Of a stretch of DNA of 13,634 nucleotides, positions 926 through 7,370 are shown in pieces. Below the pieces are notes generated by a model. The model was given only the letters and a program-made list of their open reading frames with translations, did not search any database and had not been told where the DNA came from. How positions within the stretch are numbered: the stretch's first letter is position 1; the number at the start of each line of letters is the position of its first letter. The translations under genes were made by a program, and so were the position numbers. This DNA is from a virus (Duplodnaviria > Heunggongvirae > Uroviricota > Caudoviricetes): positions 1-13,634 of the IMG/VR virus record IMGVR_UViG_2740892028_000001. One strand, given 5' to 3'.

Positions 926-1804
926 TCAGTAGTTATGTACTGAAGGAGGTAATTCTTTATTCTTAAGTCTCATCCATGCGGAAAGATTCGCTGGTCCGTC
1001 TGGCTCATTGATATCAACATCTCGTGTGTGATTTATTAAAACGTCTCTCGCCATTCCGATAACATACGAGAATTCATGACCGTAGTCGTAGCATCTGCCG
1101 GAATAGTTCGATTGAATTTGTTTTAATGCCGGATACAGTTCGCGGAATAATGCCTGTGAACGGTTAGCATAATCCCATAGCCATACAAGGCTGTTTGCTT
1201 CTTTTGCAGAAAGCTCGTTTGCTTTCTTCTCTTGTTTGCCGATAAACTCGCCTTCAAGCACTACCCTGTGGATGTACTCTACGGCCAGCGGGATTTGTTC
1301 AATTGAAAGTTCATCAATGCTGTCAATACCAAAACGCTGATGAACCATATTGTATGCATCGTCATAGCGAAGTCCTTTCTTTCCTACCAGCATGTTTACT
1401 GCATCGCGTAGCGGCGTTCTTTCCTCAACAGTGGTTTTCTTGCCTTTCACGTACTCGCCATGTTTGCGAATTGAAGGTAGAACTTCTGCTGTTACCCACT
1501 TGCGGAATTTGTGCGGGACCGAACCTTTATTGACAGCATCGCGGCAGCGCAGAACCAATGTATACATACCTGATTCGCTAACAATGCTTAGATTCTGCTC
1601 ACCGCCAAGGGTGTAACTTAAAGTTACTCCCTTTTCATCGTCATCAAGTGCAGTAAGCGCCTTGCGTGAGTTAGTCAGGGTTAAAGCATCACAAACATCT
1701 TTTGCTACAAACCACGGCTCACCGCATTTGTTGATGACGCGGATTTCACTGTCGCCGAATTTGAAGATGGTGAAATCGTTTTGTGCCTTTGCTATACTTT
1801 TCAT
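926..1804 (-). CDS. ant: Antirepressor Ant with an N-terminal Bro-N/KilA-N-like domain
   Basis: ORF track 926..1870. The 1870 start is a TTG lying 2 nt after the arc stop; the first ATG is at 1804-1802 with AGGAAA about 9 nt upstream. Motif [30 protein letters not shown] is typical of Bro-N antirepressors. Position immediately downstream of arc, as in P22 immI. Start choice is uncertain (1804 vs 1870). Confidence 0.85.
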
Positions 1805-1805
1805 G

Positions 1806-1876
1806 TCAATATTTCCTAATCCGATTTGTTGATACCGAAGCCCTGACTGTTCCCGCAGTTGGGGCTTCAACTTTAC
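1806..1876 (+). ncRNA. sar: Candidate sar-like antisense RNA covering the ant ribosome-binding site and arc-ant spacer
   Basis: Plus-strand -10-like hexamer TATACT at 1793-1798 inside the ant 5' end. A 13-bp stem with two G-U pairs (1837-1849 pairing with 1856-1868, 6-nt loop) followed by AACTTTAC. Predicted transcript is about 70 nt and antisense to the ant RBS, as described for P22 sar. No convincing -35 element. Confidence 0.35.
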
Positions 1877-2034
1877 GCGCCAATGCGCCCTTCCTTCTTA
1901 AAGCTTTCCATTACTCTCTGATAAATCTCAGAGTTAACAGACCGACCATTCTCTTCCGCCACCTTGCGTACCAAATCCAATACTTCTTTAGGCCACCGCA
2001 AATTGAACTGCGGCATCTTGCTCATTCCTTTCAT
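1873..2034 (-). CDS. arc: Arc repressor (ribbon-helix-helix), 53 aa
   Basis: Translation from ATG 2034-2032 is [53 protein letters not shown], essentially the P22 Arc sequence as I recall it. GAGGTG RBS 4 nt upstream. The ORF-track start at 2097 would read through the promoter/operator and is rejected. Confidence 0.95.
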
Positions 2035-2048
2035 ATTCACCTCACAAT

Positions 2049-2069
2049 ATAGGTCCACCGTGGCCCTAT
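2049..2069. promoter_or_regulatory. Mnt operator (Omnt), 21-bp near-palindrome
   Basis: ATAGGTCCACCGTGGCCCTAT; half-sites ATAGGTCCAC and ATAGGGCCAC differ at one position. Lies at the predicted Pant transcription start region. Confidence 0.75.
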
Positions 2070-2097
2070 TGAGAATATAGTAGAGTGCTTCTATCAT
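2069..2097 (+). promoter_or_regulatory. Pmnt promoter, divergent from and overlapping Pant
   Basis: Plus strand: -35 TTGAGA (2069-2074), 17-nt spacer, -10 TATCAT (2092-2097). mnt ATG at 2125 with GGAG 8 nt upstream. Confidence 0.6.
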
Positions 2098-2102
2098 GTC
2101 AA
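2074..2102 (-). promoter_or_regulatory. Pant promoter driving arc-ant
   Basis: Minus strand: -35 TTGACA (2102-2097), 17-nt spacer, -10 TATATT (2079-2074). The Arc operator is embedded between the two hexamers. Confidence 0.75.
2077..2097. promoter_or_regulatory. Arc operator (Oarc)
   Basis: Minus strand reads ATGATAGAAGCACTCTACTAT, the 21-bp Arc operator sequence as I recall it from the literature. It sits between the Pant -35 and -10 elements. Confidence 0.85.
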
Positions 2103-2124
2103 TACACTAACTTGGAGTGATGGC

Positions 2125-2376
2125 ATGGCTAGAGATGATCCGCACTTTAACTTCCGTATGCCTATGGAAGTAAGGGAGAAATTAAAATTCAGGGCGGAGG
2201 CGAATGGGAGATCAATGAACTCCGAGTTGTTACAAATCGTCCAAGATGCTCTATCAAAACCATCGCCTGTGACTGGATATCGCGACGATGCAGAACGACT
2301 CGCTGATGAGCAGTCAGAGCTTGTTAAGAAGATGGTGTTTGATACGCTGAAGGATTTGTACAAAAAAACCACCTGA
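2125..2376 (+). CDS. mnt: Mnt repressor, 83 aa
   Basis: Translation MARDDPHFNFRMPMEVREKLKFRAEANGRSMNSELLQIVQDAL... matches P22 Mnt from memory. Divergent from arc with both operators in the 90-bp spacer. Confidence 0.95.
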   Translation: MARDDPHFNFRMPMEVREKLKFRAEANGRSMNSELLQIVQDALSKPSPVTGYRDDAERLADEQSELVKKMVFDTLKDLYKKTT

Positions 2377-2475
2377 CGGTGAGTTTATTTTTGCATTTAC
2401 CTGGGCCATATTGACTACTTATAAAATGAGATCAATATTTAATCGCCCAATAACGGGTGTATGTTGAGGTATATC

Positions 2476-2655
2476 ATGGCGAAAAAACCAGGTGAAAACA
2501 CAGGAAAAAACGGCGGAATATACCAAGAAGTTGGCCCACGCGGCGGTAAGAAAGACAATTTTGCCACCGTCAAGGACAACGAAAGGCTTCCACCAACAAC
2601 AAAGCCAGGTCATGGCTGGGTATTGGATAAGCGAACTCCAGACAGCAAAAAGTAA
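2476..2655 (+). CDS. Small Lys/Gly/Pro-rich protein of unknown function, 59 aa; accessory (moron) gene
   Basis: ATG 2476 with GAGG 6 nt upstream; the ORF-track start at 2461 lacks a good RBS. Sequence MAKKPGENTGKNGGIYQEVGPRGGKKDNFATVKDNERLPPTTKPGHGWVLDKRTPDSKK has no hydrophobic segment. Followed directly by a terminator hairpin. A loose resemblance to YjzC-like small proteins is from memory only. Confidence 0.6.
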   Translation: MAKKPGENTGKNGGIYQEVGPRGGKKDNFATVKDNERLPPTTKPGHGWVLDKRTPDSKK

Positions 2656-2660
2656 TAATC

Positions 2661-2684
2661 AAGCCGGGTCACTCCGGCTTTTTG
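2661..2684 (+). terminator. Rho-independent terminator after the small accessory gene; hairpin also contains the stop codon of the convergent HExxH gene
   Basis: Stem AAGCCGG, loop GTCACT, stem CCGGCTT, then TTTT. On the minus strand the same hairpin is followed by GATTATTA, so it may act weakly in both directions. Confidence 0.7.
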
Positions 2685-3034
2685 ATATGTCGCTCGCAGA
2701 ACTCAACAAGCCTGCTCATTAAGTAGCAGTAAGTCTCGTTGGCTCTTCCTGGTTCAACATCAACACCTACCCTTGAGCAGATATCGAATGCCATGTGAGC
2801 GCACTCATGGGCAATAGTAGATAGTTTGCCATTGAACACGCCTATCACATGCAAAACACCATTCTCGCTACTCATTGTATGAGACGCTCCGTTGGCGTCC
2901 GAGTCATGCACGTCAACGCCAAGTTTTTGATGCAGGCGTTGCCATTCTGGAAAGTCTCTACAAAACACAATTGTACCGCTCTCAAAGAGCGGTACTAGCA
3001 TCTTTGGTACGTTTCCAATGTTAACTTTTTTCAT
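2669..3034 (-). CDS. Hypothetical 121-aa protein with an HExxH motif (putative zinc-metallopeptidase-like); accessory gene
   Basis: ATG 3034-3032 with AGGA 4 nt upstream. Motif IAHECAHMAF with a downstream Glu (VEPGRANE). Family not recognised by me. Located where P22 carries sieA. Confidence 0.6.
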   Translation of the reverse strand: MKKVNIGNVPKMLVPLFESGTIVFCRDFPEWQRLHQKLGVDVHDSDANGASHTMSSENGVLHVIGVFNGKLSTIAHECAHMAFDICSRVGVDVEPGRANETYCYLMSRLVEFCERHIKKPE

Positions 3035-3064
3035 GGTATCCTGCGCAAAACTAAGGAGGTTGGT

Positions 3065-3394
3065 GTGTTAGAAATAGTCGTACTCGCTCTTGGGATATCC
3101 TGTTGCGTACTATATGCAGGGTTAGCTGCCCTCAAGAAACAGGTTAAGGAATTAGATCGCTCACATGAAATTGATACAAAAATTGCGCGATTAACAGAAG
3201 AGAATAAACACTTAAAAAATTCCATAAGGGCACTAACTGATGACAACTACAAACTGTCCCATGCATTGGCTAAGTGGGAAATAGTAAGTTATGAAAGAAT
3301 GACCGACATGATTTTTTCGTCTTATATGGCTACAAAATCTCCTGAAACATCAGGAAAAGCAATAATTGCAGCCATTGAAAAGAGAATTAAATAG
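3065..3394 (+). CDS. Hypothetical 109-aa membrane-anchored coiled-coil protein; accessory gene
   Basis: GTG start at 3065 with AGGAGG (3054-3059) 5 nt upstream. N-terminal hydrophobic helix LEIVVLALGISCCVLYAGLAAL, then a heptad-like charged region (KKQVKELDRSHEIDTKIARLTEENKHLKNSIRALTDDNYKL). Visibly AT-rich. Convergent with the gp16 gene. Confidence 0.6.
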   Translation: MLEIVVLALGISCCVLYAGLAALKKQVKELDRSHEIDTKIARLTEENKHLKNSIRALTDDNYKLSHALAKWEIVSYERMTDMIFSSYMATKSPETSGKAIIAAIEKRIK

Positions 3395-3413
3395 CCTTCC
3401 TTGGCGTTCATTT

Positions 3414-5255
3414 CTACTGCCTGGTAGCTTCGTTAGTTAGGAGCGGGCGAACGGCGTTAGCAGCCTGATTTAACGCTCGCTCATATGCCGGAGTTCCAGG
3501 CTTGACGTTTGCAAGGCGGAGAAGCATGTTTCTTGCTGCTTTAGACTCATACAAACGCATCATTGCACCAAAGCCAGCCTCAAGCCCCATTGATACGCCA
3601 AGGGTCGCAGTTGCGCCAATCGTCCTTATCCTGTTGGCTTGCGATTGCCCCGTCTGAGTTACTACATTTGCGGTGTCTGACCTTGCTGTTTGCTGTAGAA
3701 CTTCATGAAGAGCATCAAGCTCTTTCATGTGCTTTCCAGAAAAAATAGTGTTGTAAATTTCACCGCCTGACTGAGATTTCAGCTTATTAACTTCAGTGAT
3801 GAACTTGGCTGGAGAGTCCCCGGCCTTTTCCGCTATTTTGCTGACGTAAGCTGCACGCATAGCATCTTTCCCCTTATCATCCAGTGCGCTCCAGATTCGT
3901 TTCACGTCAGATGGTTTTCTGCTTAATACAACGGTATTTATAAGTTCAGGACTGGCTTCACTGCTTGCCTTGTTGAGCTTGTTGGCAATGTTTTTATTAA
4001 GCACCTTATTATAAACGTTTGCATAATCGGAATTTGCTTTAAGGTATTTTGCTGCGTCTGATGCACCGAGGTTTTTAGCAACTGCGTTACGAAGGTCTTT
4101 TGACATTGCATTCTCTACCATATTGGTAGCTGCTTTTGCCTGGTTGGGGAAGACCATAGCATCTCCCTGAACATTAGATCTAAATGCTGTTCTGTGCTGA
4201 CGCAAGAGATCAAACGTAACATCCAAATCAGTTGCAGGGTTTGCTAATTCTTCACGTAGGTTACGCAAGGATGTAAGCAGGCTTTGATTGGCAGACGTCC
4301 CAAGCCGTTCCTGTCTTGCGATCGCTGTATTCAGAGCATTCATGGTATTTGTGGTATCAACTGCGGCATTACCCATTTTATTGGTGACGTCATTGATAAC
4401 AGCGCCAGCGGCATCCTTCCGCCCCCTTAACGTGGTGGTAAGAGATTTCACCACATCATCAGGGTTGTACTCACCAAAACGGTCAAAATAATTACTTACC
4501 AGCTTACTACGCGTTGCATATTGCTCCGCTCGCTTTGAGCCTGTCCCGAGCAAAGCCCCCTCGGCATCCTGAGTTAGGCCGCGAGTGAAAGCATTTTTCG
4601 GCGGGATAACATCAGATGTCATTGGTGTCACGCCCATCGATTCTGATGTGGCAATTTTCTTCGCCACTTCTGGCGCAATATCACCTTTTATAGCCGTTAT
4701 TCCACGCCCTATTCCCTTTGCTGCTGCGGAAAGAACCCCCTGAGCGGCAAGGTTAACTCCGGCATTTTTTGCTGCATTTTGTGCGAAATCGCCTTTCTGA
4801 TTTGCGGCCTCTGCCAGTGATCCAATAGCCATGCTTCCTGCCGTTCCAACTCCTGGAACTAAATACCCACCAATTGTTTCACCGGCTTGCGCGTAGGGGT
4901 CTGTCGGTCTGTCTACTGGACGATAAACATCATCCAAAACCTTGGGTCCACCAAGCCCCTGACTGATTGCATTAATCAGACTTGCGCCGCCCTGCAATAC
5001 GTCAAATGGTATGTTTACCAGACCACGACCAGCCTGTTCTGCAATTTGCCCTGCACTTTGACCACCAGTGAGCCAATCGCCAGCTTGTTGCATCAATGAT
5101 GGTTCTTCACGTGCTGGTTCATTGCTATCCTGGCTGACAGTTTGTTGCTGAACAGACTGTCCAGCAAAATACTCATCAATGGCAGATCCAATATCTTCCG
5201 TGCTCGTACCATCAGGGAAGGTAAATGTCTTACCGTTTGCAGTTACTTTCATCAT
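3414..5255 (-). CDS. Ejection (E) protein, P22 gp16-like, 613 aa
   Basis: N-terminus [33 protein letters not shown] matches P22 gp16 from memory. Its ATG overlaps the gp20 stop (ATGA). Last gene of the gp7-gp20-gp16 triad. Confidence 0.9.
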
Positions 5256-6667
5256 TCCACCGTAAATTGAATGCCTGATTTTGAGGTATATGATCCAACC
5301 TGATTCCGTGGTTCTCCTGAAGGTATCGAATCTTGTGCTGGCGCTGCGTCAGTATTCAATGACATATACCGCTTAACGGCACTCCCCAATGATTCACCTT
5401 TTTTAACATCCAACCCCAATATCTGACCGCCATTACGCGATTGTCCAGGGTTGCCATTCGCGCTCATCCACTCAGCTTTAAACTCATTAAACTGCGCGTT
5501 TCGTCGCTCAAGGTTTGCCATTGCATCAAGCCATCTTGCGACCGTCTCAGGGTTATCCATGTCAGTTGGCGCACCCTGTCTAACGATCTCAACGTCTTTA
5601 TCCGTTGCTGGGCCGGGAGGTAGGAATTTAAGAACCTGACTGTTAACAAGGGCATTTTGGCGAATGCGCAAATCACGCAATGTCGTATCGCTTCCGGTAA
5701 GTTTTGCGAACATGTTCTGTGCGTTACCGAACAAACCTGTCGTTGGTTTTTCTGCTCTGAACTGTTGAGCAAGCGCACTCATGGAATTGGCTGAGTTTGA
5801 TGATGCTGTGGCATTGTTTACAGCCGTCTCGATTCCTTTTTCCATGTTTACTGACAGCTTAGGTGCTTCGCTAATCAACTGCTGAGCCTTTTCCTGCGCT
5901 TGCTGCATCTTAAACCCGAACTCTTGCTGATCCAGAGCCAAGCGTTGTGCTGCGATATTGTGCCCAGTCATTGCTGACTGATAGGAAAGGTTTTGCCCTC
6001 TCGCCTGAAGTGCTTCACCAGCCTGATTGCTGCGGATTGTCTCTGCCAGCCTGCCTCGGTCAATTTCACGACCAGCCATCTTATCCTGAACAGCAAACGC
6101 CTTTTCTGGTCCAAGCGCACCGAGAGACATAGTAGTCAGCATGTGTGATAGCTGCTCTGGATTCTGGATACCTGTCTGAATCATCCAGTCAGCATTAGCA
6201 CCAACGCGATTTAACCTGTCCTTGTTGTCAGTAATGAATTTACTGTAGGCTTCCGGCCCCTGAGAAAGAGCGACGTTAGCCCTCATGGCTAAATCGCCCA
6301 TATCGTTGCGTTGCTGATCATTAAGACCGGAAAACGCCTGTTGTGCCTGTGCAACAAACGCTGGATTTTCCTGGGCAAACTTAAATAGTCCCGATGGATC
6401 ACCAGAAGCCCATGCATCAGCGTGAACCTTATTGAACGCACTAATAGCTTTCTGTTGCTGTTCCTGATTGTAAATATCAGCAACTCCAGCCAGACCACGT
6501 AACGCGGTCAGGCCAACGTTATTTACACCTGAGCGAGCCAGTTCATTGTTTTCGCGGATCAGACCAAGCGTTGCGTTAATGTCGCTTGCCTTTGGCGCAT
6601 TCTCATTTTGCGTACCGATGCCAGCCAGAAAACCACCAGAATTAATACCCTGTTGCCACGTAGCCAT
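5252..6667 (-). CDS. Ejection (E) protein, P22 gp20-like, 471 aa
   Basis: Length and N-terminus [18 protein letters not shown] fit P22 gp20. AAGGGG RBS upstream. Sits between the gp7-like and gp16-like genes. Confidence 0.9.
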
Positions 6668-6677
6668 TGATTACCCC

Positions 6678-7370
6678 TTAAAACAACGAGCCAAGCAGAC
6701 CAAGACCGCCGCCGATCGCAGCCCCCCACGGAGTTGATGAACCAATTAATTTCGCAAGTCCGGCCCCAGCAATAGCACCAGACGCACCTCCGCCAATAGC
6801 AGATTGCATTGCTGATGGTCTGTTGGCATTTGCCGCTGCAAGAGCCGCACTTTGCTGCGAAATCTGACTCATGTTGTTGGCATATGTCTGCCCTGCGTTT
6901 GCCTGACCTTGCAGAGCACCAAGCCCAACGTTTGCCAGATTCTGGTAGTTGTTCATCTGACCAGACAGCCACTGCTGACCAAGCGTTGGTGCGATTGTTG
7001 CTAACTGATTACCGGTTGCAGTGGAACCCAATCCACCTGTTGCTTCCGCTGCAGCCAGACTCTGATAGCGAGCCTGACCAGCAAGATCTTTGTACTGCTG
7101 AGAGTTGTAATACTGGTTAAGTGCCTGACCTTGCCCTTCCAGAGACGATAAGTTCTCGAGGCTGCCGACATACTTATCAGCCAGAGGAGTAAACGGCTTC
7201 AGGTTGTTCATGATGGTGTTGAACTGCTGATTTTGCAGGTCTGCGGCATACTTCTGAGCTTCTGCGGCATACTTTGCGCTTTTATCAGAACTGCCACCTT
7301 TCCCGCCTTTTTCAGGGCAATAAGGTTCCTCGCCGCGCAGTTTTCTGCCCAGCTTAAATGCATATAACAT
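6678..7370 (-). CDS. Ejection (E) protein, P22 gp7-like, 230 aa
   Basis: MLYAFKLGRKLRGEEPYCPEKGGKGG... with a Gly/Ala-rich hydrophobic C-terminus (GGGASGAIAGAGLAKLIGSSTPWGAAIGGGLGLLGSLF). Near-identical to P22 gp7 as recalled. Confidence 0.9.
   Translation of the reverse strand: MLYAFKLGRKLRGEEPYCPEKGGKGGSSDKSAKYAAEAQKYAADLQNQQFNTIMNNLKPFTPLADKYVGSLENLSSLEGQGQALNQYYNSQQYKDLAGQARYQSLAAAEATGGLGSTATGNQLATIAPTLGQQWLSGQMNNYQNLANVGLGALQGQANAGQTYANNMSQISQQSAALAAANANRPSAMQSAIGGGASGAIAGAGLAKLIGSSTPWGAAIGGGLGLLGSLF

What the first reader, a model, noticed from the sequence alone, without database searches (positions are those of the whole stretch)
3065..3394. AT-rich membrane-anchored coiled-coil protein with a strong RBS, convergent on the ejection-protein operon
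GTG start with a perfect AGGAGG, one N-terminal transmembrane helix and a roughly 60-residue coiled coil. P22 SieA is an inner-membrane protein that blocks DNA entry from superinfecting phage, and a membrane protein encoded next to the ejection-protein genes fits a similar role. An i-spanin-like architecture was considered but is unlikely (see rejected list). Its stop is only 19 bp from the gp16 stop with no hairpin between, so convergent transcripts could interfere.
Basis: partly seen in the sequence, partly recalled or inferred. Interest (0 to 1): 0.55.

Follow-up and report, generated by a model that had tools for sequence, protein, structure and literature searches.

The report
Membrane zipper protein replacing sieA
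A small, common and unstudied inner-membrane protein of P22-like prophages sits in the same gene slot, behind the same promoter and ribosome-binding site, that phage P22 uses for SieA, its blocker of incoming phage DNA, so it is probably a different, unrelated way for a resident prophage to keep rivals out, although nobody has tested this.

Summary
The ORF at 3065..3394 (+) is a real gene under purifying selection. It encodes 109 aa: one N-terminal transmembrane helix, a GCN4-like leucine zipper of about five heptads (not about 60 residues), and a nearly invariant 40-residue C-terminal helix-loop-helix. The window is a P22-like late operon plus immI region.

The gene replaces sieA exactly. P22 is 98% identical up to 4 nt into the ORF, and similarity resumes right after the stop. 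P22's sieA start codon maps to 3065. The promoter region, AGGAGG and GTG are shared.

It is not a SieA homologue (hhalign probability 0.4%, one TM helix instead of three, motif absent). It belongs to phrog_8100, called "hypothetical" everywhere. In about 50 loci from Salmonella, E. coli, Klebsiella and metagenomes it always lies convergent on gp16.

The exact 21-nt leader precedes at least 11 unrelated payload families in 119 viral contigs. Ten of the 11 are membrane or exported proteins, and only SieA has a known function.

Best reading, at 0.45 confidence: a prophage-expressed, non-homologous analogue of SieA acting at the inner membrane. The function is inferred, not shown. An antisense-RNA effect on gp16 has a precedent in BTP1 STnc6030 and remains possible.

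The parts
3004..3034 (+). Stretch equivalent to the putative PsieA promoter annotated in the P22-pbi record
   Evidence: L001 2505-2535 maps here through the 98%-identical alignment. Sequence upstream of about 3032 differs between loci that carry the gene.
3034..3042 (+). Extended -10 promoter core TGGTATCCT (TGnTAnnnT), 31 nt before the start codon
   Evidence: A TGnTAnnnT motif lies at -31 to -39 in 19 of 19 distinct upstream contexts, including distant homologues with otherwise unrelated upstream DNA. It is predicted from sequence conservation; the transcription start is not mapped.
3047..3067 (+). Shared 21-nt leader AAAACTAAGGAGGTTGGTGTG, with the Shine-Dalgarno AGGAGG at 3054-3059 and the GTG start at 3065-3067
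   Evidence: It is identical in P22 ahead of sieA. The exact pattern is found in at least 120 IMG/VR contigs ahead of 11 unrelated ORF families.
3065..3394 (+). CDS of the 109-aa protein (phrog_8100)
   Evidence: Full-length PHROG match, E 1.4e-69. Homologues were found. Purifying selection is shown.
3068..3133 (+). Transmembrane helix, residues 2-23
   Evidence: Kyte-Doolittle maximum 2.43. No K/R precedes it and 2-5 K/R lie in the 15 residues after it in all 7 family members examined, which predicts N-out/C-in. The topology is inferred.
3170..3277 (+). Leucine zipper, residues 36-71, with Asn at two a positions
   Evidence: Heptad analysis. GCN4 zipper hits in PDB sequences, E 0.004. Helical in the AF2 model with pLDDT 90-96.
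3272..3391 (+). Nearly invariant C-terminal module, residues 70-109 (KWEIxSYExMTDMIFSSYMATKSPETSGKxIIAAIEKRI): helix, loop, amphipathic helix
   Evidence: Invariant columns in alignments A2 and A3. dN/dS 0.06-0.12. Between the window and SE1 alleles, 1 of 40 residues is changed here against 17 of 69 upstream, Fisher p 0.0025.
3338..3357 (-). 8-pair hairpin followed by a T run on the late-operon strand, inside the SPETSG codons
   Evidence: Terminator-like hit. Fold energy -11.8 kcal/mol, z -2.6. Retained through a compensatory change in L006 but broken in L003 and L007. Its function is uncertain.
3394..3405 (.). Right junction motif GCCTTCCTTGGC, directly after the stop
   Evidence: Similarity to P22 resumes here. 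Variants GCC[AT]TCC[ATG]TGGC follow the stop in 7 of the 11 payload families.
3414..5255 (-). gp16 ejection (DNA transfer) protein, convergent neighbour
   Evidence: phrog_770, E 1.7e-279. The C-terminal 328 aa are 75% identical to P22 gp16.
2669..3034 (-). Divergent 121-aa ORF (hkcC-like, phrog_1365). Its start codon abuts the -10 element.
   Evidence: It is 98-99% conserved in P22 and SE1. PMC2629481 names hkcC as a gene of unknown function in this region.

Best explanation
SHOWN:
- The ORF is a real gene of P22-like (Lederbergvirus-type) phages and prophages.
- It is one of at least 11 interchangeable payloads of a cassette slot next to the 3' end of ejection gene 16.
- The slot supplies a conserved extended -10 element, a 21-nt leader with AGGAGG, and a GTG start.
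- In P22 the payload of this slot is sieA.

INFERRED:
- The gene is transcribed from its own weak promoter in the lysogen, against the direction of the late operon, as sieA is.
- The product inserts into the inner membrane through its N-terminal helix, with the short N-terminus outside and the rest in the cytoplasm.
- It dimerises through a GCN4-like zipper.
- It presents a highly conserved helix-loop-helix head close to the cytoplasmic face of the membrane.

MOST LIKELY FUNCTION (inferred, not shown):
- It is a superinfection-exclusion protein that is analogous to SieA but not homologous to it.
- It would stop DNA delivery by incoming P22-like phages at the inner membrane.
- The mechanism would be binding either the membrane-embedded or cytoplasmic end of the gp16/gp20/gp7 conduit, or a conserved host factor that the conduit needs.
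For: Allelism with sieA:
- P22 is 98% identical to window 2000-3068, and homology stops 4 nt into the ORF.
- The P22 sieA start maps to 3065, and similarity resumes at the stop codon.

Own expression signals:
- TGnTAnnnT is present in 19 of 19 distinct upstream contexts, with a Shine-Dalgarno sequence at -11 or -12.

Fixed position:
- In about 50 loci the gene lies in a P22-like phage. Its 3' end is 17-30 nt from, or overlaps, a convergent gp16, or is separated from it by one small gene.
- It travels with at least 4 different gp16 C-terminal types, from 100% to 37% identity.
- This holds for the 35%-identical relative P0017 as well.
- A P22-type SieA is never present in the same locus.

Nature of the slot:
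- 119 payloads behind the identical leader fall into 11 families.
- Ten of the 11 have a TM helix or a signal peptide.
- 108 of the 119 are followed within 0-33 nt by a convergent gp16.
- The one characterised payload, SieA, is an inner-membrane blocker of P22 DNA injection. Escape mutations map to the C-terminal regions of gp16 and gp20 (PMC10883804).

Protein constraint:
- dN/dS is 0.14-0.26 overall and 0.06-0.12 in the C-terminal head.

Restricted distribution:
- A search of 1.84 billion representatives found only 7 relatives.
Against: - No experiment exists for this family. Every source calls it hypothetical.
- It has no homology to SieA or to any defence model. The only PADLOC hit is a 15.6-bit coiled-coil match.
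- Sharing a slot does not prove sharing a function. The payloads are structurally very different, including secreted proteins and one soluble protein.
- The predicted cytoplasmic location of the conserved domain rests on the positive-inside rule only.
- If the topology is correct, the protein cannot meet the periplasmic part of the conduit.
- The near-invariance of the head, next to very different gp16 types, fits a host target at least as well as a phage target.
Confidence: 0.45

Rival explanations
1. It is a lysogenic-conversion or host-physiology function unrelated to phage exclusion. The membrane-anchored dimer would bind a conserved host protein at the cytoplasmic face of the membrane and change envelope, division, transport or stress behaviour to the benefit of the lysogen.
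For: - The C-terminal head is almost invariant from Salmonella and E. coli to Klebsiella, while the neighbouring gp16 varies from 100% to 37% identity. This is what a conserved host target would give.
- The slot also carries secreted and soluble proteins of unknown function, one of them YobH-like.
- There are weak architecture-level hits to DivIC and ZapB.
Against: - All about 50 contexts are P22-like phages with the gene tied to gp16. It is never seen in other lambdoid phages, which otherwise exchange genes freely with this group.
- The only characterised payload of the slot is an exclusion protein (PMC10883804).
Confidence: 0.25
2. The active agent is the RNA. The transcript has no terminator and runs antisense into the 3' end of gene 16, where it would interfere with late mRNA of incoming or resident phage, as proposed for STnc6030 of prophage BTP1. 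The protein would be secondary, or the two would act together.
For: - There is no hairpin or terminator between the stops, nor soon after them on the plus strand.
- In Klebsiella and in one metagenomic homologue the ORF overlaps the gp16 3' end by about 29-38 nt.
- In BTP1 a lysogen-expressed RNA antisense to the gp16 homologue's 3' end excludes BTP1. The authors found no ORF longer than 60 aa (PMC7067206; my ORF list agrees).
Against: - Purifying selection acts on the amino-acid sequence, with synonymous divergence up to dS about 1-1.6.
- The strong Shine-Dalgarno sequence and start codon are conserved.
- The same protein sits next to gp16 genes that share little DNA. An antisense effect would therefore be allele-specific, whereas the protein is conserved.
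Confidence: 0.12
3. It serves the phage's own lytic cycle. Examples would be tuning late-operon read-through into the tailspike gene through the internal hairpin and convergent transcription, or protecting induced cells from re-injection by released progeny.
For: - A terminator-like hairpin lies on the late strand 57 nt after gp16.
- The ant moron of P22 has been suggested to influence read-through to gene 9 (PMC2629481).
- sieA is reported to be up-regulated on induction (PMC10883804).
Against: - The hairpin follows largely from the codons of the conserved PETSG peptide and is broken in two of the diverged homologues.
- The gene is absent from most P22-like phages: 13 of 143 phage records with a related gp16 C-terminus carry it. 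It is therefore dispensable for growth.
Confidence: 0.08
4. It is a lysis or division-type bitopic coiled-coil protein, such as an i-spanin or a DivIC/FtsB-like protein.
For: - The architecture is an N-terminal TM helix plus a coiled coil.
- Pfam DivIC gives E 0.0037.
Against: - The DivIC score of 17.5 bits is below the 28.9-bit cut-off.
- There is no Rz-like PHROG hit.
- There is no embedded or adjacent lipoprotein ORF on the same strand.
- The gene lies in the immI/ant moron, antisense to the late operon, not in a lysis cassette.
- The charge distribution predicts the opposite topology, C-terminus in the cytoplasm.
Confidence: 0.02

Closest known systems
P22 SieA (phrog_7745; types A-C of Leavitt et al. 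2024, PMC10883804)
   Same: - Same slot between genes 16 and 9 of a P22-like phage.
- Same promoter region, leader, Shine-Dalgarno sequence and GTG start.
- Same convergent spacing to gp16 (19 nt against 22 nt).
- Both are AT-rich (37% and 33.5% G+C) and both are inner-membrane proteins by prediction.
- In both, the most conserved part is predicted to be cytoplasmic and near the C-terminus.
   Different: - No detectable sequence relationship.
- 109 aa against 162-210 aa.
- One TM helix against 3-4.
- It has a leucine zipper and lacks the FxRYPxEAxxFNK motif.
- Exclusion activity is not tested.
STnc6030 antisense RNA of prophage BTP1 (Owen et al. 2020, PMC7067206)
   Same: - A lysogen-expressed transcript in the same gap, directed into the 3' end of the gp16 homologue.
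- It confers exclusion of the cognate phage.
   Different: - STnc6030 has no ORF longer than 60 aa (and the paper).
- Here the transcript encodes a protein under purifying selection.
- No sequence similarity: tblastn with the target protein found no match in BTP1.
phrog_5962 family (107-109 aa), another payload of the same slot
   Same: - An N-terminal TM helix with no preceding charge, followed by a zipper.
- Same leader.
- Sometimes encoded in tandem with the target, between it and gp16.
   Different: - A different C-terminal domain.
- Similarity is limited to 37 zipper columns (hhalign probability 71%, E 4e-5). This could be coiled-coil convergence.
Small membrane-anchored exclusion proteins of other phages (HK97 gp15, T4 Imm and Sp, lactococcal Sie2009). 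These are recalled from general knowledge; HK97 gp15 is cited in PMC10883804.
   Same: Short prophage- or phage-encoded membrane proteins that block DNA entry after adsorption.
   Different: - Unrelated sequences, different phage types and different targets.
- None is known to me to use a cytoplasmic leucine zipper.
- Not compared by computation here.
DivIC/FtsB and Rz i-spanins
   Same: A bitopic protein with a TM helix followed by a coiled coil.
   Different: - Below the family thresholds.
- Opposite predicted topology.
- Wrong genomic context and no partner gene.

Membership tests
SieA (phrog_7745 / PF26849) | Sequence homology to SieA | tested here: not met
   BLASTP against P22 SieA gives E 0.32. 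hhalign of the family alignment A3 against SieA type-A alignment A4 gives probability 0.4%. No phrog_7745 hit at E<=0.01, while P22 SieA hits it at 3.7e-108. Types B and C were not available for comparison, and the local Pfam copy seems to lack PF26849.
SieA (phrog_7745 / PF26849) | Three or four transmembrane helices | tested here: not met
   A hydropathy scan finds one hydrophobic segment in the target and several in P22 SieA. The paper reports 3 TM helices in type A and 4 in types B and C.
SieA (phrog_7745 / PF26849) | Conserved cytoplasmic motif FxRYPxEAxxFNK | tested here: not met
   The motif is absent from the target and its homologues. It is present in all 11 SieA payloads found behind the same leader.
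SieA (phrog_7745 / PF26849) | Location between genes 16 and 9 of a P22-like prophage, next to gene 16 | tested here: met
SieA (phrog_7745 / PF26849) | Blocks DNA injection by P22-like phages, with escape mutations in gp16/gp20 | not testable with these tools
   This requires plating, K+ efflux and escape-mutant experiments.
phrog_8100 (unknown function) | Full-length profile match | tested here: met
   E 1.4e-69 over residues 2-109 of a 109-position profile. The distant relative P0017 also matches, E 3.2e-16.
Moron (independently expressed insert in a phage operon) | Own promoter, atypical base composition, presence or absence among close relatives, insertion between operon genes | tested here: met
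   Conserved extended -10 element. 37% against 47% G+C. Replaced by sieA or by other payloads in relatives. Antisense within the late operon. A terminator, often part of the definition, is not present.
Rz-type i-spanin | N-in/C-out anchor, periplasmic coiled coil, partner o-spanin lipoprotein gene, lysis-cassette location | tested here: not met
   No Rz PHROG hit. No same-strand embedded or adjacent ORF. The charge bias predicts C-in. The gene is located in the immI region.
DivIC/FtsB (PF04977) | Score above the Pfam gathering threshold | tested here: not met
   17.5 bits against a 28.9-bit cut-off.
Parallel dimeric leucine zipper (structural motif, not a family) | Heptad repeat with L/I/V at a and d positions and buried Asn at an a position | tested here: met
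   The a/d string is I I L N L I L N L L W over residues 36-71. It aligns with the GCN4 zipper, E 0.004. The oligomeric state itself is not tested.

The most novel reading that the evidence does not exclude
The gene-16-proximal slot of P22-like phages would be a cassette-exchange site with a universal expression adapter: an extended -10 element, a 21-nt leader and a GTG start. Its 11 or more unrelated envelope-protein payloads would each be a different blocker of the gp7/gp20/gp16 DNA-delivery conduit. On this reading the target represents a new structural class of injection blocker. It would be a single-pass, N-out/C-in zipper dimer whose conserved cytoplasmic head caps the conduit or sequesters a host factor it needs.
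Probability: 0.3. Interest if true: 0.65.

Novelty: new variant of a known kind. Interest (0 to 1): 0.5.

Why it matters
How short-tailed phages move DNA across the inner membrane, and how SieA stops them, are both unresolved. Leavitt et al. 2024 note that it is hard to see how very different SieA proteins and ejection proteins keep interacting.

If this 109-aa protein also blocks entry, it is a much simpler probe of the same step. It has one TM helix, a dimerising zipper and a 40-residue conserved head. Its escape mutants and binding partners would show which part of the conduit, or which host factor, is the vulnerable point.

The shared leader also gives a cheap recipe for finding and testing a panel of about ten further candidate exclusion proteins, which are common in Salmonella, E. 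coli and Klebsiella prophages. These proteins matter for phage typing and for the host range of therapeutic phages. If instead the protein has no effect on phages, it is simply one more uncharacterised moron.

Tried and rejected
- **Fold search.** Foldseek of the AF2 model against the PDB gave nothing below E 4. The model is essentially one long helix, so fold comparison is uninformative.
- **PDB sequence search.** A profile search returned only generic zippers such as GCN4, Fos/Jun and vimentin.
- **Family libraries.** Pfam, NCBIfam and PADLOC gave only sub-threshold coiled-coil matches: DivIC, bZIP, ZapB and LmuB at 15.6 bits.
- **Truncated SieA.** Two weak colinear BLASTP segments suggested a SieA lacking TM2 and TM3. 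Profile-profile comparison rejected this (probability 0.4%).
- **Hidden protein in BTP1 STnc6030.** I tested whether it encodes a small membrane protein like this one. The gap there is only 155 nt and no plausible membrane ORF lies on that strand, so BTP1 is a different solution.
- **Species-representative genomes.** The scan found no relative, as expected for strain-variable prophage cargo.
- **Literature.** Searches for the RefSeq accession and for related terms found no study of this protein.
- **Lipoprotein reading of LALGISCC.** Rejected because there is no basic n-region and Gly or Cys occupies lipobox positions that do not allow it (read directly from the sequence).
- **Opposite-strand ORFs.** 3031..3246 and 3144..3266 are treated as spurious because the plus frame carries the selection signal.

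Full report
**Setting.** The window is the late-operon end of a P22-like phage or prophage.
- On the minus strand lie the coat, tail and ejection genes: gp7 at 6678..7370, gp20 at 5252..6667 and gp16 at 3414..5255.
- Next comes the immI region: ant at 926..1870 (-), arc within 1873..2097 (-), mnt at 2125..2376 (+) and sar RNA at 1806..1872.
- The finding lies between mnt and gp16. [quoted passage not shown]

- The ORF 3065..3394 (+) starts with GTG, 5 nt after AGGAGG (3054-3059), and encodes 109 aa.
- It is AT-rich: 37.0% G+C against 47.1% for the window, with GC3 at 31.8%.
- Residues 1-24 form the only strongly hydrophobic segment, with a Kyte-Doolittle maximum of 2.43.
- The heptad pattern runs from I36 to W71, about five heptads with Asn at two a positions. 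It aligns with the GCN4 zipper at E 0.004. The coiled coil is therefore real but about 36 residues long, not about 60.
- AlphaFold2, using a 10-sequence alignment, gives a helix 2-89, a loop 90-96 and a helix 97-108, with mean pLDDT 86.
- The stop (3392-3394) is 19 nt from the gp16 stop (3414-3416). That stretch folds no better than shuffled sequence, and no plus-strand terminator follows closely.

**It is a real gene.**
- An open frame of 109 codons at this composition has a chance probability of about 5e-4.
- Between diverged homologues dN/dS is 0.14-0.26. It falls to 0.06-0.12 in the last 39 codons, while dS reaches 1-1.6.
- Between the window and SE1 alleles, 17 of the first 69 residues differ against 1 of the last 40 (Fisher p 0.0025).
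- The constrained part is therefore the C-terminal module KWEIxSYExMTDMIFSSYMATKSPETSGKxIIAAIEKRI. It is nearly invariant from Salmonella and E. coli to Klebsiella.

**It replaces sieA exactly.**
- P22 is 98% identical to window 2000-3068, and the match stops 4 nt into the ORF.
- In the annotated P22-pbi record the sieA CDS starts at the base that aligns with 3065. The putative PsieA promoter aligns with 3004-3034.
- In the three-way alignment, P22 and the window share everything up to GGTGTGT, are unrelated through the coding regions, and become similar again directly after the stop codons (GCCTTCCTTGGC against GCCGTCCTTGGC). Phages SE1 and ST160 carry the window's gene, unannotated, at the same place.

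**It is not a SieA homologue.**
- BLASTP against P22 SieA gives E 0.32.
- Profile-profile comparison with a SieA type-A alignment gives probability 0.4%.
- The PHROG families differ: 8100 for the target and 7745 for SieA.
- SieA proteins have 3-4 TM helices, at least 162 aa and the motif FxRYPxEAxxFNK. None of these applies here.
- Types B and C could not be compared directly.

**Distribution and context.**
- The family is small. A search of 1.84 billion representatives gave 7 hits, several of them fragments.
- It is nevertheless common. The exact protein is recorded on at least 1000 contigs and is named "hypothetical protein [Enterobacteriaceae]".
- It is present at 99.7% DNA identity in 17 of 5426 complete E. 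coli genomes, in 13 phage records and in 40 IMG/VR contigs.
- In every locus examined, about 50 in all, it lies in a P22-like phage on the strand opposite to gp16. Its stop is 17-30 nt from the gp16 stop. In Klebsiella and in one metagenomic phage the two genes overlap. In three loci one further small gene intervenes.
- The same holds for the 35%-identical relative P0017.
- The neighbouring gp16 C-terminus ranges from 100% down to 37% identity, and the left-hand neighbours also vary. No locus holds a P22-type SieA as well.

**Expression signals.**
- Across 19 distinct upstream sequences, including those of the distant homologues, a TGnTAnnnT element (an extended -10) lies 31-39 nt before the start. 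A Shine-Dalgarno sequence lies at -11 or -12.
- In the window this element is TGGTATCCT at 3034-3042.
- Sequence further upstream is not conserved between contexts, so the extended -10 is the conserved promoter core. This is a prediction from conservation, not a mapped transcription start.

**The slot is a cassette site.**
- The 119 complete ORFs that start at its GTG fall into 11 unrelated families:

| Payload family | Loci | PHROG / note |
|---|---|---|
| 129-aa protein with a signal peptide | 21 | phrog_2651 |
| 107/109-aa TM plus coiled-coil protein | 20 | phrog_5962 |
| Target, 109 aa | 19 | phrog_8100 |
| 62-aa protein with two TM helices | 12 | phrog_21338 |
| SieA, 164 aa | 11 | phrog_7745 |
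| 75-aa protein with two TM helices | 9 | phrog_7294 |
| 99/68-aa signal-peptide group | 7 | phrog_19844 / phrog_21022 (68-aa form YobH-like) |
| 103/106-aa N-terminally anchored protein | 7 | phrog_10450 |
| 140-aa soluble protein | 6 | no match |
| 149-aa bitopic protein | 4 | no match |
| 116-aa protein with three TM helices | 3 | no match |

- In 108 of the 119 loci a convergent gp16 C-terminus follows within 0-33 nt.
- Ten of the 11 families are membrane or exported proteins, and only SieA has a known function.
- The variability of this region was known (PMC2629481). I did not find the shared adapter or the envelope-protein bias described in the papers I could read.

**Topology and working model.**
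- In all seven family members examined, no Lys or Arg precedes the TM helix, and 2-5 lie in the 15 residues after it.
- By the positive-inside rule the short N-terminus is outside, and the zipper and conserved head are cytoplasmic. The paper predicts the same side for SieA's conserved motif.
- I therefore picture a membrane-anchored parallel dimer whose head sits about 50-70 residues of helix below the membrane.
- The head could also fold back towards the membrane, because the last helix is amphipathic (hydrophobic moment 0.43).
- Which partner the head binds is not known. Its invariance next to very different gp16 proteins would fit a host factor, or the most conserved conduit components, better than the variable part of gp16.

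**Rival readings.**
- *Antisense RNA.* In the P22-like prophage BTP1 the gap between gp16 and the tailspike gene is only 155 nt. A lysogen-expressed RNA, STnc6030, runs antisense into the gp16 homologue and excludes BTP1. Escape changes lie at the 3' end of that gene. The unterminated transcript of the present gene could act likewise. However, selection on the protein sequence, and its conservation next to dissimilar gp16 DNA, show that the protein matters.
- *Host function unrelated to phages.* This cannot be excluded and is my second choice.
- *Spanin or DivIC-like roles.* These fail their tests.

**Verdict.** Its interpretation is partly supported:
- The positional argument is much stronger than proposed, because the gene is allelic with sieA and shares its expression signals.
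- There is no homology to SieA, and no functional evidence for exclusion.

I file the gene as a new variant of a known kind: a non-homologous occupant of a known exclusion slot. Interest is moderate. It rises if the exclusion test is positive, because the protein would then be a minimal tool for studying inner-membrane DNA entry by podophages.

Noticed in passing
window 3047-3067; loci L059-L178: The exact 21-nt leader (Shine-Dalgarno sequence plus GTG) ahead of the target also precedes 10 other unrelated small ORF families in IMG/VR P22-like contigs. Nearly all are membrane or exported proteins, and nearly all are followed at once by a convergent gp16. The slot behaves like a cassette site with a shared expression adapter.
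   Followed up: yes
window 3394-3405; downstream of payload stops in L059-L178: A 12-nt near-palindrome, GCC[AT]TCC[ATG]TGGC, follows the stop codon in 7 of the 11 payload families. In some loci it recurs between two successive small genes, followed by a new Shine-Dalgarno sequence and ATG. It may be a recombination boundary sequence, or just the 3' flank of certain gp16 types.
   Followed up: partly
window 3338-3357 (-): An 8-pair hairpin with a T run lies on the late-operon strand inside the SPETSG codons (z -2.6). It is kept by a compensatory T-A to G-C change in L006 but broken in L003 and L007. It is largely a by-product of the self-complementary codons for P-E-T-S-G.
   Followed up: partly
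window 2669-3034 (-): A 121-aa ORF (phrog_1365, hkcC-like) is 98-99% identical in P22 and SE1 but is not annotated in the P22-pbi record used here. Its ATG (3032-3034) directly abuts the -10 element of the target gene, giving a divergent arrangement. A 10-pair hairpin at 2973-2995 lies inside it.
   Followed up: partly
window about 3455-3560 (gp16 residues about 533-566): The least conserved patch of the gp16 C-terminus relative to P22 includes the position equivalent to P22 gp16 P546, the site of the P546S SieA-escape change. This position is Ala in the window. G532 is conserved.
   Followed up: no
L009 6351-6680; L007 448-771; L008 442-765: In some prophages a second TM plus coiled-coil gene (phrog_5962) lies between the target homologue and gp16. 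Its zipper region shows borderline profile similarity to the target (hhalign probability 71%).
   Followed up: partly
protein P0014 (JGI metagenome, 71 aa): This predicted protein joins a gp20 fragment ([37 protein letters not shown]) to the last 33 residues of the target family. It is probably an assembly or recombination chimera, because the two genes lie on opposite strands in the window.
   Followed up: no
L049, L050; phage records CP051272, CP051278, CP051288: Some copies of the gene are N-terminally truncated or are split into 2-3 tblastn pieces. They are either pseudogenes or sequencing errors.
   Followed up: no
L053 2259-2708 (-) (phage UPF_BP1); L056 2102-2251 (+) (Klebsiella phage phiKp_30): Other occupants of the gap between gp16 and the tailspike gene: a 149-aa coiled-coil protein with a C-terminal membrane anchor, and an unannotated 49-aa ORF with a lipoprotein signal (LLAGC).
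   Followed up: no
L020 5776-5992: One IMG/VR locus has about 190 extra bases between the target's stop and the gp16 C-terminal match, which lacks its last 7 residues. The nature of this insert was not examined.
   Followed up: no
start codons of homologues (window, L002, L006, L007, L009): Most family members, and SieA, use GTG or TTG starts behind a strong Shine-Dalgarno sequence. Only the Klebsiella homologue and P0017 use ATG.
   Followed up: no
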